Shown one piece after another: positions 795 through 34,465 of a stretch of 35,993 bases of DNA. The DNA is from a virus (taxonomy: Duplodnaviria > Heunggongvirae > Uroviricota > Caudoviricetes), in the IMG/VR virus record IMGVR_UViG_2585427748_000014, positions 1 through 35,993 of that record; one strand, 5' to 3'. The notes under the pieces are model-generated. The model saw nothing but the letters and a program-made list of their open reading frames with translations. It had not been told where the DNA came from and ran no database searches. The stretch's first letter is position 1; each line of letters starts with the position of its first letter. Both the position numbers and the translations under genes were made by a program.

Positions 795-1232
795 TTTTCT
801 GCTCCTAATCATATCGACCCTGCAAGGTCGGTTGGTTTCTCCACAAAACAGAGAAGAACACCTGCGGTGGCAGCCGCCCGGATGGATTGGGTTATGAGCC
901 CGTCGTCCGGTGATGTTCTTCTCTGTTTTGTAAAAAGAGCGGTACCAGCCGGAAGCAAGTGTACAAACTGGTACCGCGAGGACTACACACAGCATAAAGT
1001 TGTGGTGCCGGGTGCCTCCCGGTGCCTGGCGAAAGTTGCACACCAGGCGGGTGGGTATCCACAGAAGGTCGACTGTCAGCCTCAACCTTAACCCGCGTGC
1101 GCTGAGCCGCATTCACCACAACGCTAAGGATTCTCTCTGGTTGAAAATACTTAGCTGTTATGTGCCTGTCTTTTCACCACTTCAGGCTCGGTGGTATCTT
1201 GGTGTTTTCATATAGCCAAGAAGGAAATAGTT

Positions 1233-1424
1233 ATGACCAAAGAAGAAAAAATTCTTTATTTATTCCAACTATCGGTTAAGACTCACACTGCATATCAGAC
1301 TGCTGCCATGACATCAGATAAAAATTACAGTACGTCAGAAAACCCGATAGACGACATAAGCAAGCTTTACGATAAGTTCGAAGCACTACTCGATAAAAAG
1401 TTTGCTGAGGCTGGGCTTGAGTGA
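1233..1424 (+). CDS. Small hypothetical protein (63 aa), A+T-rich
   Basis: ATG at 1233 with AAGGA 7 nt upstream; its 3' end overlaps a convergent small ORF. Confidence 0.3.
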   Translation: MTKEEKILYLFQLSVKTHTAYQTAAMTSDKNYSTSENPIDDISKLYDKFEALLDKKFAEAGLE

Positions 1425-1562
1425 TTGTTGAATAATCGACAAAACCCAACTTAAATTTTCGTCAGTGGGCTCGATGCCATGTGCGGTGAGCTCACTTTTC
1501 AAAACTCCAAGCAATTCAGAGCTGATTTTCAATATATCTGCTTGATTTCTAACTATTCCCAC
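1386..1562 (-). CDS. Small hypothetical protein (about 59 aa from GTG 1562; 68 aa if from ATG 1592), same strand as cI
   Basis: AGGGAGGA sits 5 nt upstream of GTG 1560-1562; N-terminus has basic residues (MTARRPREEK). Confidence 0.3.
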   Translation of the reverse strand: MGIVRNQADILKISSELLGVLKSELTAHGIEPTDENLSWVLSIIQQSLKPSLSKLFIE

Positions 1563-1775
1563 TTTTTCCTCCCTTGGTCTACGCGCGGTCATGTTTTACG
1601 CCCAAACGACTTCACAGTTATTGTTTAAAATCTGGACTTTCATTTCATACACCTGCTTTAACATGAGTGCCTAGTGGCACAACATGACTCAACGAATCAT
1701 CCTGGACTTCATATGCCCCAGGCGGCTACTTCGTGGGCGTCCTGCCTGTTCGTTATCTTTGATATAAAATCTAAC

Positions 1776-1839
1776 TTAACTTAGTTATTATGGCAAGAGA
1801 AAACACCAAACTTTTCTTAGTTCGGTGCCTTAGTTAGAG
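1776..1839. promoter_or_regulatory. OL-like operator cluster: three CTTAGTT motifs (1780-1786, 1816-1822, 1829-1835) just beyond the cI stop
   Basis: Same 7-mer as in the cI-cro intergenic sites, clustered on the other side of cI. Confidence 0.45.
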
Positions 1840-1849
1840 AAGAGAGGTC

Positions 1850-2476
1850 TTAGAGTTCGTATTGAACTCCTTTGACTACACCAATGATAAGGCAATTACC
1901 ATTGATAGGGATGTTGGGATACCGAGGATTTAATGGCACTAAAAACTTTTGAGGGCCATCGATGACTAATTTTTTTACTGTAGCTTCGTTTGTTCCATCA
2001 AGTCGAGCGATGACTATTTTTCCATGACGAGGTTCTGCATCTGGATCTACAATCACTGTTGCGCCTTCTGGTATTGTTGGGAGGCCATTAGGGTTAGTCA
2101 TGGAGTCACCTTTAACCTCTAATGCAAATGAGTTATCACCAATCTTTAATGATGTATCTACCCACTTGTCCACTTCACTAAACACTTCTGCTGCCCTGCA
2201 CTCAGTAAACTGCCCAGCCTGAACCCACGATATTACAGGAACTCTGCGCATGTTTGTGACGAGTTTGCCTTCAAACTCAGCACCATAAAGAATGTAATCT
2301 ATTGACGTATTGAAGAACTTCGCTAATTTCGAAAGTGCCTCCCCACCAGGGGTATTGATGTCTTTCTCCCAGTACCCCACAGCAACGTCGCTTACTCCAC
2401 AAAATTTACCCAATTCTTTCTGGGACGTTCCGGTAACTCTTCTCAGAGCTTTTATACGCTGACCAACCGTTTCCAT
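1850..2476 (-). CDS. cI: Prophage repressor, cI/LexA-like (N-terminal XRE-type HTH plus C-terminal S24 peptidase domain)
   Basis: 208-aa ORF; HTH segment QKELGKFCGVSDVAVGYWEK; C-terminal GDSM...KKLV consistent with a Ser-Lys autocleavage dyad; divergent from the Cro-like gene; no Shine-Dalgarno, consistent with a leaderless message. Confidence 0.9.
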   Translation of the reverse strand: METVGQRIKALRRVTGTSQKELGKFCGVSDVAVGYWEKDINTPGGEALSKLAKFFNTSIDYILYGAEFEGKLVTNMRRVPVISWVQAGQFTECRAAEVFSEVDKWVDTSLKIGDNSFALEVKGDSMTNPNGLPTIPEGATVIVDPDAEPRHGKIVIARLDGTNEATVKKLVIDGPQKFLVPLNPRYPNIPINGNCLIIGVVKGVQYEL

Positions 2477-2573: not shown

Positions 2574-2774
2574 ATGACAACTGACGATATCGAAAGCTAC
2601 TTCGGCAGTATTGAGAAAGTTGCTGCTTTTTTCGGCATAACAACTGAAGCCGTTTATCAGTGGCGAAACCGTCCGGGCCAGTTAATTCCAAAAGGACGTG
2701 CAGCAGAAGCTGCATATAGAACTTGCGGACGGTTGCCATTTAAACCTGAGCTTTATGAAAAATCTAATGGATAA
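2574..2774 (+). CDS. cro: Cro-like DNA-binding regulator (Cro/YdaS-type HTH)
   Basis: 66-aa ORF divergent from cI; GGAGG 4 nt upstream; HTH-like segment VAAFFGITTEAVYQWRNR. Confidence 0.75.
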   Translation: MTTDDIESYFGSIEKVAAFFGITTEAVYQWRNRPGQLIPKGRAAEAAYRTCGRLPFKPELYEKSNG

Positions 2775-3363
2775 ATCGATTAACAGAAACCACAGAACGA
2801 TGAGGCTAACCGTGGGTAAGCATCACTGGAAAGTAGAAAAACAGCCTGAGTGGTACGTGAAAGCTGTCAGAAAAACTATCGCAGCGTTGCCGGGTGGTTA
2901 CGCTGAAGCAGCTGACTGGCTGGATGTAACAGAAAACGCATTATTTAACCGTCTTCGTGCCGATGGCGATCAGATTTTCCCGCTGGGATGGGCAATGATT
3001 TTGCAACGTGCTGGTGGAACTCACTTCATTGCTGACGCTGTGGCGCAGTCTGCAAATGGCGTCTTTGTGTCTCTTCCTGACGTCGAGGATGTGGACAACG
3101 CCGATATTAACCAGCGCCTGCTGGAAGTCATTGAACAGATTGGCAGTTATTCCAGACAGATTCGTTCGGCAATCGAAGACGGTGTGGTGGAACCGCATGA
3201 GAAGACAGCAATTAACGACGAGCTGTATCTCTCAATTTCGAAGCTGCAGGAGCATGCAGCACTGGTCTACAAAATCTTTTGCATTTCAGAAAGTAATGAC
3301 GCCCGCGAGTGTGCAGCTCCGGGCGCCGTGGCGTGTCGTGACTGTGGAGAAACTAACGCATGA
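2755..3363 (+). CDS. Hypothetical early regulatory protein (possibly YdaT/CII-like); start uncertain (2755, 2767 or 2800)
   Basis: Long ORF immediately after cro; no strong Shine-Dalgarno, so translational coupling is possible. Confidence 0.45.
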
Positions 3364-29487: not shown

Positions 29488-30532
29488 ATTTCAGCGCCCG
29501 ACGCTGGCAGAAAATATCAGTATGCTCCGTAACGATTTATTCGCCAGGCTGGACGTCAGCAACACGCTCCGGCGCATGGATGAAGACGTGCGGGCAAAGG
29601 TGTATGCGGCGGCGCTGCATACGGTTTACGGGTACATCGATTATCTGGCAATGAACATGCTGCCTGACCTGTGCGATGAGTCCTGGCTGGCGCGACATGC
29701 TGCGATGAAACGGTGTCCGCGCAAGGGGGCCACGGCTGCCAGCGGGTATATGCGCTGGGAAGGTGTCAGCGATGGCCTGAAGGTGACCGCCGGGAGTGTT
29801 ATTCAGCGCGATGACCTGGTGCAGTACACGGCAACTGCCGATGCAACCAGCTCCGGTGGTGTCCTGCGCGTGCCGATCGCCTGCTCAAGTGCAGGCGCGG
29901 TCGGTAACGCTGACGACGGTACGTCATTAATCCTGGTCACGCCGGTGAATGGTCTGCCGTCTTCCGGCGTGGCAGATACACTGACAGGTGGATTTGATAC
30001 TGAAGAGCTGGAAACGTGGCGCGCCCGCGTCATTGAGCGGTATTACTGGACGCCTCAGGGCGGGGCTGACGGGGACTATGTCGTCTGGGCTAAAGAAGTG
30101 CCCGGCATTACCCGCGCATGGACATACCGACACTGGATGGGAACGGGGACTGTCGGTGTGATGATTGCCAGCAGTGACCTGATTAATCCCATTCCGGAAG
30201 AATCAACGGAAATGGCGGCAAGACAACATATCGGGCCACTGGCCCCGGTGGCAGGCTCTGATTTGTATGTGTTCAGGCCGGTGGCGCATACGGTGGATTT
30301 TCATATCCGTGTGACGCCGGATACACCAGAAATACGGGCTGCCATCACCGCCGAGTTGCGTTCGTTCCTGCTGCGTGATGGTTATCCGCAGGGAGAACTG
30401 AAGGTGTCGCGTATCAGTGAAGCGATTTCCGGTGCGAACGGGGAATACAGCCATCAGTTGCTTGCACCGGCAGACAATATCTCCATTGCAAAAAATGAAC
30501 TGGCGGTACTGGGGACGATTTCATGGACGTGA
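29474..30532 (+). CDS. Baseplate J-like protein (Mu gp47-like)
   Basis: 352 aa at the conserved position. Confidence 0.8.
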
Positions 30533-34375: not shown

Positions 34376-34465
34376 GGTTAACCTCTTTGGCTATAGACTT
34401 TACGGATAATTTTATAACAAATGCGTTCATTAAACAAACAGCCCATCGACTGCTGATTGAGATTG

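What the first reader, a model, noticed from the sequence alone, without database searches (positions are those of the whole stretch)
1233..1592. Convergent, 3'-overlapping small ORFs left of the immunity region
Two small ORFs, each with a credible Shine-Dalgarno, overlap by about 39 bp at their 3' ends on opposite strands. The minus-strand ORF lies on the cI strand, where lambdoid phages carry exclusion or N-like genes, and has a short basic N-terminus. Either one is spurious, or they form an antisense-coupled pair.
Basis: seen in the sequence. Interest (0 to 1): 0.4.

Follow-up and report, generated by a model that had tools for sequence, protein, structure and literature searches.

The report
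Conserved convergent overlapping phage gene pair
Two small genes on opposite DNA strands that share 39 bases at their ends are both real, conserved protein-coding genes of a lambda-like prophage, sitting where phage lambda has its N and sieB genes; this is a new example of a known layout rather than a new kind of system.

Summary
ORF63 (+, 1233-1424) and the minus-strand ORF (1386-1592) converge and share exactly 39 bp. Neither is spurious. In their unique parts each evolves as a coding sequence in its own frame only (pN/pS 0.21 and 0.23, against 0.9-1.8 in other frames), and the shared 39 bp are constrained in both frames. All 58 loci examined, from at least five genera, carry both genes. The minus gene really starts at GTG 1562 (58 aa, strong Shine-Dalgarno). 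Its 'basic N-terminus' is a recombination scar next to a remnant of SfV orf33, so it is not N-like. ORF58 is the first gene after a repressor-controlled pL-type promoter (lambda N's position). ORF63 sits behind a 35-nt block that is 94% identical to the one just upstream of the sieB promoter in lambda and P22 (sieB's position). Lambda N/sieB, P22 24/sieB, e14 ymfJ/ymfI and Rac ydaF/sieB have the same convergent layout, and the two K-12 pairs are published RNA-seq 'excludons'. Most likely ORF63 is made in the lysogen and ORF58 on induction, with transcripts that are antisense to each other. The biochemical functions remain unknown. Verdict: a new member of a known kind, of modest interest.

The parts
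1233..1424 (+). ORF63: 63-aa protein gene in the 'sieB slot' (phrog_2605; SfII_36 / WP_000159356). Predicted two-helix hairpin.
   Evidence: pN/pS 0.21 in its own frame; AF2 pLDDT 73, helices 3-28 and 38-59.
1386..1562 (-). ORF58: 58-aa protein gene in the 'N slot', the first intact gene of the pL operon (phrog_15476). It starts at GTG 1562 behind AGGGAGG. The open frame extends to ATG 1592, but that extension is not conserved. It corresponds to the C-terminal domain of a two-domain family.
   Evidence: start codon and SD conserved in all 8 module types; pN/pS 0.23; AF2 pLDDT 69, helices 7-27 and 34-55; longer relatives.
1386..1424 (.). 39-bp dual-coding 3' overlap. Codon position 2 of both genes coincides, and position 3 of one coincides with position 1 of the other. 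It encodes LLDKKFAEAGLE* on the + strand and LKPSLSKLFIE* on the - strand.
   Evidence: diversity 0.08/0.00/0.15 against about 0.4 at third positions outside; exactly 39 bp in 8 of 9 divergent modules and in 47 of 49 further loci.
1161..1195 (+). Conserved 35-nt block (TGTGCCTGTCTTTTCACCACTTCAGGCTCGGTGGT) shared with lambda, P22 and more than 130 phage records. In P22 it lies at -77 to -43 of the mapped sieB RNA start. It is also the left mosaic joint of the cassette.
1171..1200 (+). Predicted ORF63 promoter: -35-like TTTTCA (1171-1176), 18-nt spacer, extended -10 TGgTATCTT (1192-1200). The predicted start is near 1207. Inferred, not mapped.
   Evidence: TGnTAT(C/G/T/A)(T/C)T is present at the block's edge in every SfV/e14-type locus despite four different downstream sequences; also in EPP-1 and Rac-SA53.
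1198..1225 (.). Hairpin following the block (CTTGG-N13-CCAAG), ending just before the ORF63 Shine-Dalgarno. The stem covaries between phages. The strand on which it acts and its role are unresolved.
   Evidence: CTTGG/CCAAG, GCTGG/CCAGC (e14, L007), ACTGG/CCAGT (Rac-SA53), CCTTTT/AAAAGG (SfV), TCTCG/CGAGA (lambda, P22).
1768..1796 (-). pL-type promoter (TTGCCA-17-TAGATT) firing leftward toward ORF58, overlapped by operator palindrome CTAACTTAACTTAG (1771-1784).
   Evidence: CTAA-N6-TTAG occurs 3 times in 36 kb, 0.25 expected; the other two copies lie between cI and cro.
1691..1754 (-). Conserved structured RNA at about +7 to +70 of the predicted pL transcript, upstream of ORF58. It is also the right mosaic joint of the cassette.
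1596..1664 (-). Remnant of the 5' end of SfV orf33 (MLKQVYEMKVQILNNNCEVVWA*), in frame with ATG 1592 and one codon upstream of it.

Best explanation
Both ORFs are real genes that form one mobile two-gene cassette in the early-left region of an SfII/SfV/e14-type lambdoid prophage. ORF58 (minus strand, 1562-1386) is the first intact gene transcribed from the repressor-controlled pL promoter, so it is silent in the lysogen and made immediately on induction or infection. This is the position of lambda N, but the protein is unrelated to N. ORF63 (plus strand) is transcribed in the opposite direction from its own promoter, which is built on the conserved block that also precedes sieB in lambda and P22. 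It is therefore most likely a lysogen-expressed accessory ('moron') gene in the sieB slot. No terminator separates the genes and the pL operon continues leftward, so the pL transcript is antisense to the whole of ORF63 and the ORF63 transcript is antisense to ORF58. The pair should behave as a convergent excludon: ORF63 on and ORF58 off in the lysogen, and the reverse once pL fires, through polymerase collision and/or cleavage of the RNA duplex. The 39-bp coding overlap welds the two genes into a single unit of inheritance. Shown here: coding status of both genes, conserved overlap, co-occurrence, position relative to operators and cI, homology of the upstream block, and the same layout in relatives. 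Inferred: the exact promoters, the timing of expression, antisense interference, and any biochemical role. By analogy with other small pL-operon proteins ORF58 may inhibit a host factor, and by analogy with SieB ORF63 may be a prophage accessory or exclusion function; these last two ideas are guesses.
For: Coding status. Strict co-occurrence and conserved overlap: 9 divergent modules from Escherichia/Shigella, Kluyvera, Atlantibacter, Klebsiella and metagenomes, 49 of 49 further loci, and a 40%-identity pair in Edwardsiella phage EPP-1. pL and operators. Block homology to lambda and P22, and the curated P22 sieB promoter and RNA start immediately downstream of it. Extended -10 conserved at the block's edge. 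No terminator-like site between 1233 and 1592 on either strand. Same convergent layout next to the repressor with unrelated genes: lambda, P22, e14, Rac, 689R6, SfV-type. ymfI-ymfJ and sieB-ydaF are in the core MG1655 'excludome' (at least 50% of 58 transcriptomes; PMC12288877). Cassette behaviour: recurrent breakpoints at about 1160-1198 and 1645-1755, tandem cassettes, 38.8% GC against 50.7% for the window.
Against: There are no transcription or translation data for this pair. The ORF63 promoter is only predicted: in P22 the mapped sieB promoter lies downstream of the block, not in it, so homology of the block does not by itself prove a promoter here. The pL-like hexamers alone are not above chance (3 found, 2.9 expected); their support comes from the overlapping operator and the context. 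When the coding regions themselves overlap, overlapping transcripts follow by definition, so an 'excludon' listing is not evidence that the overlap is regulatory. Neither protein has any recognisable family, defence-system or structural match, so the functional labels are analogies. ORF63 has no predicted membrane segment, unlike SieB.
Confidence: 0.55

Rival explanations
1. Both genes are real and sit in the N and sieB slots, but the 39-bp overlap and antisense geometry are incidental genome compaction with no regulatory consequence. Each gene would be controlled only by its own promoter, with transcripts ended by Rho or processing.
For: In the same slot the 3' relationship ranges from a 20-nt gap (P22) and abutment (lambda) to overlaps of 4-167 bp, so no particular overlap length is required. 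3' overlaps of convergent phage genes are common. Conservation of exactly 39 bp is explained by double coding constraint alone.
Against: The pL operon must read leftward through all of ORF63 to reach the downstream early genes, so head-on transcription across an active ORF63 promoter is unavoidable on induction. The convergent arrangement itself recurs with many unrelated gene pairs, which suggests the orientation is selected.
Confidence: 0.25
2. The two proteins are functional partners, for example an exclusion or toxic factor and its antidote, like SieB and Esc in P22. They would be kept together because they act on each other, the overlap being a device that enforces co-inheritance.
For: Co-occurrence is perfect across 40-100% identity and the two proteins diverge in parallel (92/83, 84/69, 81/81, 79/73, 78/64, 73/70, 64/53, 41/40 % identity). 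Both are two-helix hairpins of similar size. ORF63 relatives are found only with proteins carrying the ORF58-like domain, whereas 689R6, whose N-slot protein has only the family's other domain, has an unrelated plus-strand partner.
Against: Physical overlap alone explains both the co-occurrence and the parallel divergence, because the genes cannot be separated without truncating one. Opposite promoters under different control are a poor design for a stoichiometric pair. There are no PADLOC, Pfam or NCBIfam matches. No interaction could be modelled with the tools available.
Confidence: 0.15
3. The minus-strand gene is an N-like antiterminator that acts on the structured RNA in the pL leader.
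For: It is the first gene after pL. A conserved structured RNA lies at the start of the pL transcript. The ORF read from ATG 1592 begins with a few basic residues.
Against: The basic extension is absent from all homologs and is junction sequence. The conserved 58-aa protein has no arginine-rich motif and no Pfam hit. The same leader RNA occurs with unrelated first genes: SfV orf33, e14 ymfJ and the 689R6 68-aa protein. Some ORF58-bearing loci lack the leader RNA (L016, L007, L070). Protein and RNA therefore do not co-vary.
Confidence: 0.04
4. One of the two ORFs is a spurious open frame on the antisense strand of the real gene.
For: Annotators call only one of them: SfII and PGAP annotate only ORF63. 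Both ORFs are short and have no known domains.
Against: In each unique segment, third-position bias and low pN/pS appear only in that ORF's own frame, and the phase switches at the overlap. Both frames are intact in all 58 loci examined. The start codon and Shine-Dalgarno are conserved for both.
Confidence: 0.02

Closest known systems
Lambda N / sieB and P22 gene 24 / sieB (convergent genes just downstream of pL/oL)
   Same: The order is the same: repressor, oL/pL, leader element, first pL gene on the repressor strand, then an oppositely oriented gene whose 3' end meets it. The same 35-nt block (33 of 35 identical) lies upstream of the plus-strand gene. From my own knowledge, sieB is expressed from the prophage (Ranade & Poteete 1993, J Bacteriol 175:4712; that paper is not held in the library).
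   Different: The proteins are unrelated: there is no SieB (PF14163) or N signature. Lambda's genes abut and P22's are 20 nt apart, whereas here 39 bp are dual-coding. In P22 the mapped promoter is 6-36 nt beyond the block, with the RNA start 43 nt beyond it. Here the ATG is only 37 nt after the block, and an extended -10 at the block's edge is the likely promoter. The leader here is a different RNA from nutL.
e14 ymfI / ymfJ and Rac sieB / ydaF of E. coli K-12, published convergent 'excludons'
   Same: These are convergent pairs directly on the pL side of the prophage repressor, with 63-bp and 4-bp coding overlaps. e14 carries the same block with TGgTATGCT, the same hairpin with compensatory changes, and the same leader RNA. 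Both pairs show overlapping transcription in at least 50% of 58 MG1655 transcriptomes (PMC12288877).
   Different: There is no sequence similarity to ORF63 or ORF58. The functions of YmfI and YmfJ are also unknown, so the analogy is architectural only.
Lambda OOP RNA / cII 3'-overlap antisense control
   Same: Convergent transcripts in the lambdoid control region overlap at their 3' ends. OOP overlaps the 3' end of cII and lowers CII synthesis (as summarised in PMC7067206).
   Different: OOP is a short non-coding RNA. Here both partners are protein-coding and each transcript would cover the whole partner gene.
Two-domain N-slot proteins of 121-201 aa (for example Edwardsiella phage EPP-1 WJN66849; clusters P0025, P0027, P0030, P0031, P0037)
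   Same: Their C-terminal roughly 50 residues are homologous to ORF58 (40% identity to EPP-1). In EPP-1 the gene converges on an ORF63 homolog with a 33-bp overlap.
   Different: They carry an extra N-terminal domain (M.KQEP.I..G.SD.EL..W plus a coiled-coil-like stretch), which occurs on its own as the 68-aa N-slot protein of phage vB_EcoM-689R6. ORF58 is the C-terminal domain alone.

Membership tests
Lambda N-type antiterminator | First gene of the pL operon, downstream of oL/pL | tested here: met
   pL-like promoter at 1796-1768 overlapped by an operator palindrome. ORF58 is the first intact gene downstream.
Lambda N-type antiterminator | N-terminal arginine-rich motif that binds boxB RNA | tested here: not met
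   The conserved protein starts MG/MA-x-V at the GTG 1562 position. The MTARRPREEK extension is absent from all homologs and is junction sequence.
Lambda N-type antiterminator | Sequence or profile similarity to N proteins, and a cognate nut site (boxA + boxB) that co-varies with the protein | tested here: not met
   No Pfam hit and no similarity to lambda N. The leader RNA is shared with phages that have unrelated first genes and is missing from some ORF58 loci.
SieB superinfection exclusion protein | Profile match to PF14163 (SieB) | tested here: not met
   ORF63 has no Pfam match at E <= 1, whereas slot-mates of the sieB type score 2.5e-22.
SieB superinfection exclusion protein | Position: opposite strand to pL, converging on the first pL gene, behind the conserved block | tested here: met
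SieB superinfection exclusion protein | Expressed from the prophage and aborts superinfecting phage growth | not testable with these tools
   Needs lysogen transcriptomics and plating assays.
Convergent excludon | Convergent neighbouring genes whose transcription units must overlap | tested here: met
   There is a 39-bp coding overlap and no terminator-like site on either strand within 1233-1592. The pL operon continues leftward through ORF63.
Convergent excludon | Both strands transcribed, with mutually exclusive expression | not testable with these tools
   Only indirect evidence exists: RNA-seq overlap for the architecturally equivalent K-12 pairs ymfI-ymfJ and sieB-ydaF.
PHROG 2605 (ORF63) and PHROG 15476 (ORF58/68) | Full-length profile HMM match | tested here: met
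   E 1.4e-33 over 1-63 of 69 profile positions; E 7.4e-50 over 1-68 of 68. Both families are annotated 'unknown function'.
Toxin-antitoxin or known anti-phage defence system | Match to a known toxin, antitoxin or defence protein model; co-directional bicistronic operon | tested here: not met
   No PADLOC, Pfam or NCBIfam hits. The genes are convergent, not co-transcribed.

The most novel reading that the evidence does not exclude
The pair is one cassette of a hypervariable, recombination-driven slot in lambdoid phages. The slot would be bounded on one side by the conserved 35-nt block and on the other by the conserved pL-leader RNA. Within it, dozens of unrelated convergent and often dual-coding gene pairs are exchanged and even stacked in tandem. 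Each cassette would encode a lysogen-expressed protein and a lytic-phase counter-protein, wired by antisense transcription into a two-state toggle, and the coding overlap would serve to keep the two halves together.
Probability: 0.15. Interest if true: 0.6.

Novelty: new member of a known kind. Interest (0 to 1): 0.35.

Why it matters
This is a clean, statistically well-supported case of a conserved dual-coding 3' overlap between two real genes. It exposes a systematic annotation gap. ORF58 is missing from the SfII GenBank record and from the one RefSeq E. coli locus inspected, and the summary rows for 63 E. coli genomes list only one CDS. The 81-aa partner of SfV orf33 is likewise unannotated. 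It also shows that the lambda N/sieB arrangement is a general design of the early-left region: a conserved upstream block followed by a variable plus-strand gene that converges on a variable first pL gene. If the antisense toggle is real, it gives a simple route by which prophage accessory genes are switched off at induction. The practical gain is a set of defined candidates (ORF63, ORF58 and their slot-mates) for lysogen-expressed and early-lytic small proteins of unknown function.

Tried and rejected
(1) Domain and family searches of both proteins and eight slot-mates found nothing above threshold in Pfam, NCBIfam or PADLOC. (2) AlphaFold2 gave two-helix hairpins at pLDDT 69-73, and Foldseek against the PDB gave no hit with E < 1, which says nothing about function. 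(3) A profile search of 1.84 billion representatives found only 15 clusters. It revealed the two-domain relatives but no annotated homolog. (4) I first took the 35-nt block to be the sieB promoter itself. The curated P22 record places the promoter and RNA start just downstream of it, so I revised this to 'block adjacent to the promoter, with an extended -10 at its edge in SfV/e14-type phages'. (5) I considered the block as lambda's tL1 terminator or a pL-transcript element. No U-tract follows on the minus strand, single-sequence folding is unremarkable, and the literature search was unproductive, so this stays unresolved. (6) I tested the leader RNA as an HK022 put-like antiterminator. A covariance model finds no match in HK022, lambda, P22, Rac or EPP-1 and no second copy in the window, and Rfam has no hit, so no link to put could be shown. 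(7) The ST64B gene STMMW_20121, independently transcribed in lysogens, turned out to lie elsewhere in that prophage and is not evidence for this slot. (8) The 207-nt minus ORF of 689R6 looked like the same gene because of its length, but it is not homologous to ORF58 (one search gave no hit). It matches the other domain of the family. (9) The original sieB promoter paper (Ranade & Poteete 1993) is not held, and the ExcludonFinder supplements are not held.

Full report
WHAT IS THERE. The window is an SfII/SfV/e14-type lambdoid prophage. Positions 1100-1754 are 99.5% identical to Shigella phage SfII. The control region reads: cI-like repressor 1850-2476 (minus strand; HTH_3 + Peptidase_S24), a cro-like gene at 2574-2774 (plus strand), then cII-like and O-like genes. 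The two ORFs of the finding are present exactly as described. ORF63 is at 1233-1424 (+) and a 68-codon ORF is at 1386-1592 (-), sharing 1386-1424, which is 39 bp.

ARE BOTH REAL? Each ORF matches its own PHROG over full length (phrog_2605, E 1.4e-33; phrog_15476, E 7.4e-50). Searches of 5.8 billion proteins found about a dozen clusters for each at 64-100% identity, from Escherichia, Kluyvera, Atlantibacter, Klebsiella and metagenomes. I fetched the DNA of divergent homologs of either protein. Every locus encodes both genes, convergent, including loci where only one had been called. I aligned eight distinct modules and measured diversity by codon position. In the ORF63-only segment it is 0.16/0.09/0.41 for ORF63 codon positions 1/2/3. 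In the ORF58-only segment the phase flips to 0.18/0.09/0.37 in the minus-strand frame. In the overlap it falls to 0.08/0.00/0.15. Variable sites are non-randomly distributed (p 3.5e-9 and 5.7e-6). pN/pS is 0.21 and 0.23 in the proper frames against 0.9-1.8 in all others. Synonymous divergence drops from 0.60 and 0.54 to 0.22 and 0.10 inside the overlap. A further 49 loci from IMG/VR and GTDB, retrieved through ORF58, all carry an intact ORF63, and 47 of them have exactly 39 bp of overlap. A 40%-identity version of the pair with a 33-bp overlap exists in Edwardsiella phage EPP-1. The 'one is spurious' alternative is therefore rejected.

CORRECTION TO THE MINUS-STRAND GENE. All homologs begin at the position of the window's Val11. 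That GTG (1562) is preceded by AGGGAGG, and a start codon with a Shine-Dalgarno sequence is conserved there in all eight module types. The extra ten codons (MTARRPREEK) are specific to the SfII lineage. Immediately upstream, 1664-1596 (minus strand) encodes MLKQVYEMKVQILNNNCEVVWA*, the first 21 residues of SfV orf33 followed by a stop, in the same frame as ATG 1592 and one codon before it. The 'basic N-terminus' is thus a recombination scar, and the gene is best described as ORF58 (1386-1562).

WHERE IT SITS. The palindrome CTAA-N6-TTAG occurs three times in the 36-kb window, against 0.25 expected. Two copies lie between cI and cro, and one lies at 1771-1784. That third copy covers the spacer and -10 of a leftward promoter-like site, TTGCCA-17-TAGATT, at 1796-1768. 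ORF58 is therefore the first intact gene of a repressor-controlled pL-type operon, which is the position of N in lambda. Upstream of ORF63 lies a block of about 75 nt that is nearly invariant in all modules, although everything further upstream differs. Its first 35 nt are 33/35 identical to lambda 34394-34428 and to P22, and they hit 138 phage records. In both lambda and P22 the block lies just upstream of sieB, which is oriented against pL and converges on N (lambda, abutting) or on gene 24 (P22, 20-nt gap). The curated P22 records place the sieB promoter at 29690-29720 and the RNA start at 29727. That is 6-36 nt and 43 nt beyond the block, which occupies 29650-29684. So the block is adjacent to the mapped promoter and is not the promoter itself. 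In this window the ATG is only 37 nt past the block. Here, and in every SfV/e14-type locus, the block's 3' edge forms an extended -10 (TGgTATCTT, 1192-1200; variants TATCCT, TATGCT, TATTCT, TATACT) with a 4/6 -35-like hexamer 16-18 nt upstream, despite unrelated downstream sequence. I infer a transcription start near 1207. This is a prediction.

THE SAME DESIGN ELSEWHERE. Unrelated gene pairs occupy the same slot in the same convergent way. They are e14 ymfI/ymfJ (63-bp overlap), K-12 Rac sieB/ydaF (4 bp), Rac-SA53 rac10/rac11 (39 bp), vB_EcoM-689R6 144 aa/68 aa (29 bp), and the SfV type, orf33 with an unannotated 81-aa gene (83 bp). Pairwise BLASTP finds no similarity among these families apart from the EPP-1 and Klebsiella relatives of ORF63 and ORF58. 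ExcludonFinder lists ymfI-ymfJ and sieB-ydaF among the 165 convergent excludons seen in at least half of 58 MG1655 transcriptomes (PMC12288877). Among 84 analysable loci, mechanical ORF calling found about 35 plus-strand ORF families after the block. 41 loci had a converging ORF with a 3' overlap of 4-167 bp and 14 more had a gap of 26 nt or less. These calls are unvalidated. Only SieB has a known function among these slot genes.

CASSETTE BEHAVIOUR. Similarity to the window breaks recurrently at about 1155-1165, 1198, 1645, 1691-1693, 1752-1755 and 2787. The pair is found next to different repressors and different downstream genes, such as RdgC or YfdP/DUF2303. It is 38.8% GC in a 50.7% GC window. 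Several loci (L007, L038, L042, L049, L050) carry two block-bounded cassettes in tandem. The module occurs in 63 of 5,426 complete E. coli genomes. In the summary rows only one CDS lies under it, and in the locus I inspected PGAP annotates only ORF63. SfII likewise lacks ORF58.

THE PROTEINS. Neither has a Pfam, NCBIfam or PADLOC match. AlphaFold2 predicts two-helix hairpins for both (pLDDT 73 and 69), and Foldseek finds nothing significant. A profile search of 1.84 billion representatives found 15 clusters. Several are proteins of 92-201 aa with the ORF58-like segment at the C-terminus. The N-terminal domain of several of these is homologous (E about 1e-15) to the 68-aa N-slot protein of 689R6. 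The N-slot family is therefore modular, and ORF58 is its C-terminal domain alone. No function can be assigned to it.

HOW IT MOST LIKELY WORKS. ORF58 is silent while the repressor occupies the operator over pL and is made at once on induction. ORF63 is transcribed the other way from its own promoter, most plausibly in the lysogen, as sieB is. No terminator-like site lies within 1233-1592 on either strand, and the pL operon must continue leftward through ORF63 to reach the remaining early genes. Each transcript is therefore antisense to the other gene. I expect reciprocal expression of the excludon type (confidence 0.55). The rivals are as follows. The overlap may be incidental compaction (0.25). 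The proteins may be functional partners kept together by the overlap (0.15, not exclusive of the main model). ORF58 may be N-like (0.04); this is disfavoured because the leader RNA occurs with unrelated first genes and some ORF58 loci lack it. One ORF may be spurious (0.02).

SIDE FINDING. The pL leader holds a conserved structured RNA (window 1754-1691, minus strand). In 16 distinct sequences from SfII, SfV, e14, ST64B, Klebsiella, Kluyvera, Atlantibacter and other backgrounds, 94% of cells pair and five pairs change on both sides. The covariation score is 0.376, against 0.142 in shuffles (0 of 500 reach it) and at most 0.11 in slid controls. Two G.U pairs are possible only on the minus-strand RNA. 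Rfam has no match. A covariance model finds one copy in the window and none in HK022, lambda, P22, Rac or EPP-1. Its function is unknown.

VERDICT. The pair is a new member of a known kind, the lambdoid N-slot/sieB-slot convergent pair. It stands out for a conserved dual-coding overlap and for being routinely half-annotated.

Noticed in passing
window 1691-1754 (minus strand): Conserved structured RNA at about +7 to +70 of the predicted pL transcript. It has an outer stem (1754-1749 with 1696-1691), an invariant 28-nt core (CAGGCAGGACGCCCACGAAGUAGCCGCC) and an inner hairpin (1722-1718 with 1705-1701). Covariation is strong (0 of 500 shuffles reach it), Rfam has no match, and there is no detectable relation to HK022 put. 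It is shared by SfV, e14, ST64B and Klebsiella, Kluyvera and Atlantibacter prophages with unrelated first genes. It may be an undescribed leader RNA family.
   Followed up: partly
window 1161-1225; also lambda 34394-34428 and P22 BK000583 29650-29684: A 35-nt block is conserved at about 94% across more than 130 lambdoid phages. It contains two mutually exclusive inverted repeats (GCCTG..CAGGC and ACCAC..GTGGT), and variation is confined to the would-be loops. It is followed by a hairpin whose stem covaries between phages (CTTGG/CCAAG, GCTGG/CCAGC, ACTGG/CCAGT, CCTTTT/AAAAGG, TCTCG/CGAGA). The 5' arm of that hairpin overlaps the predicted -10, so it is unclear on which strand or at what level it acts.
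   Followed up: partly
IMG/VR loci L077-L196 (block scan): The block marks a hypervariable locus. About 35 different plus-strand ORF families follow it. About half of the loci have a converging minus-strand ORF with a 3' coding overlap of 4-167 bp. Tandem cassettes occur (L007, L038, L042, L049, L050). The ORF calls are mechanical and unvalidated.
   Followed up: partly
window 1596-1664 (minus strand): A 22-codon remnant of the 5' end of SfV orf33 (MLKQVYEMKVQILNNNCEVVWA*) lies between the leader RNA and ORF58. It marks where the ORF58/ORF63 cassette replaced or joined an SfV-type cassette.
   Followed up: yes
window 930-1152 (minus strand): Rfam match to the prophage sRNA family STnc100 (48.5 bits, gathering score 47), immediately downstream of the cassette in the pL direction. 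It lies inside the 226-codon ORF 432-1112, and only the C-terminal part of that ORF (residues 103-225) matches a phage protein family (phrog_204). The N-terminal roughly 100 codons, and the SfII_35 annotation over the same stretch, are therefore probably not coding.
   Followed up: partly
L002 (SfV U82619) about 3096-3340 (not checked; inferred from ATG 36 nt after the block); L042 3241-3486: SfV and its relatives encode an unannotated 81-aa plus-strand gene (MTFDEKELDNAINK..., phrog_3311, E 1e-53) behind the block. It converges on orf33 with an 83-bp overlap, so it is another half-annotated pair.
   Followed up: partly
L003 3570-3776 (phage vB_EcoM-689R6); proteins P0025, P0027, P0030, P0031, P0037: The N-slot protein family is modular. 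One domain (M.KQEP.I..G.SD.EL..W plus a coiled-coil-like stretch) occurs alone in 689R6. The other occurs alone as ORF58. Both occur fused in proteins of 130-171 aa.
   Followed up: yes
window 1771-1784, 2499-2512, 2548-2561: Three perfect copies of the 14-bp palindrome CTAA-N6-TTAG (0.25 expected in the window) are the likely repressor operators: one over pL and two in the cI-cro intergenic region.
   Followed up: yes
L073 1406-1503 (E. coli K-12 Rac): The annotated sRNA KilS lies on the pL strand just beyond sieB in Rac. That is the same relative position as the STnc100 match here, which hints that an sRNA downstream of the slot may be a recurrent feature.
   Followed up: no
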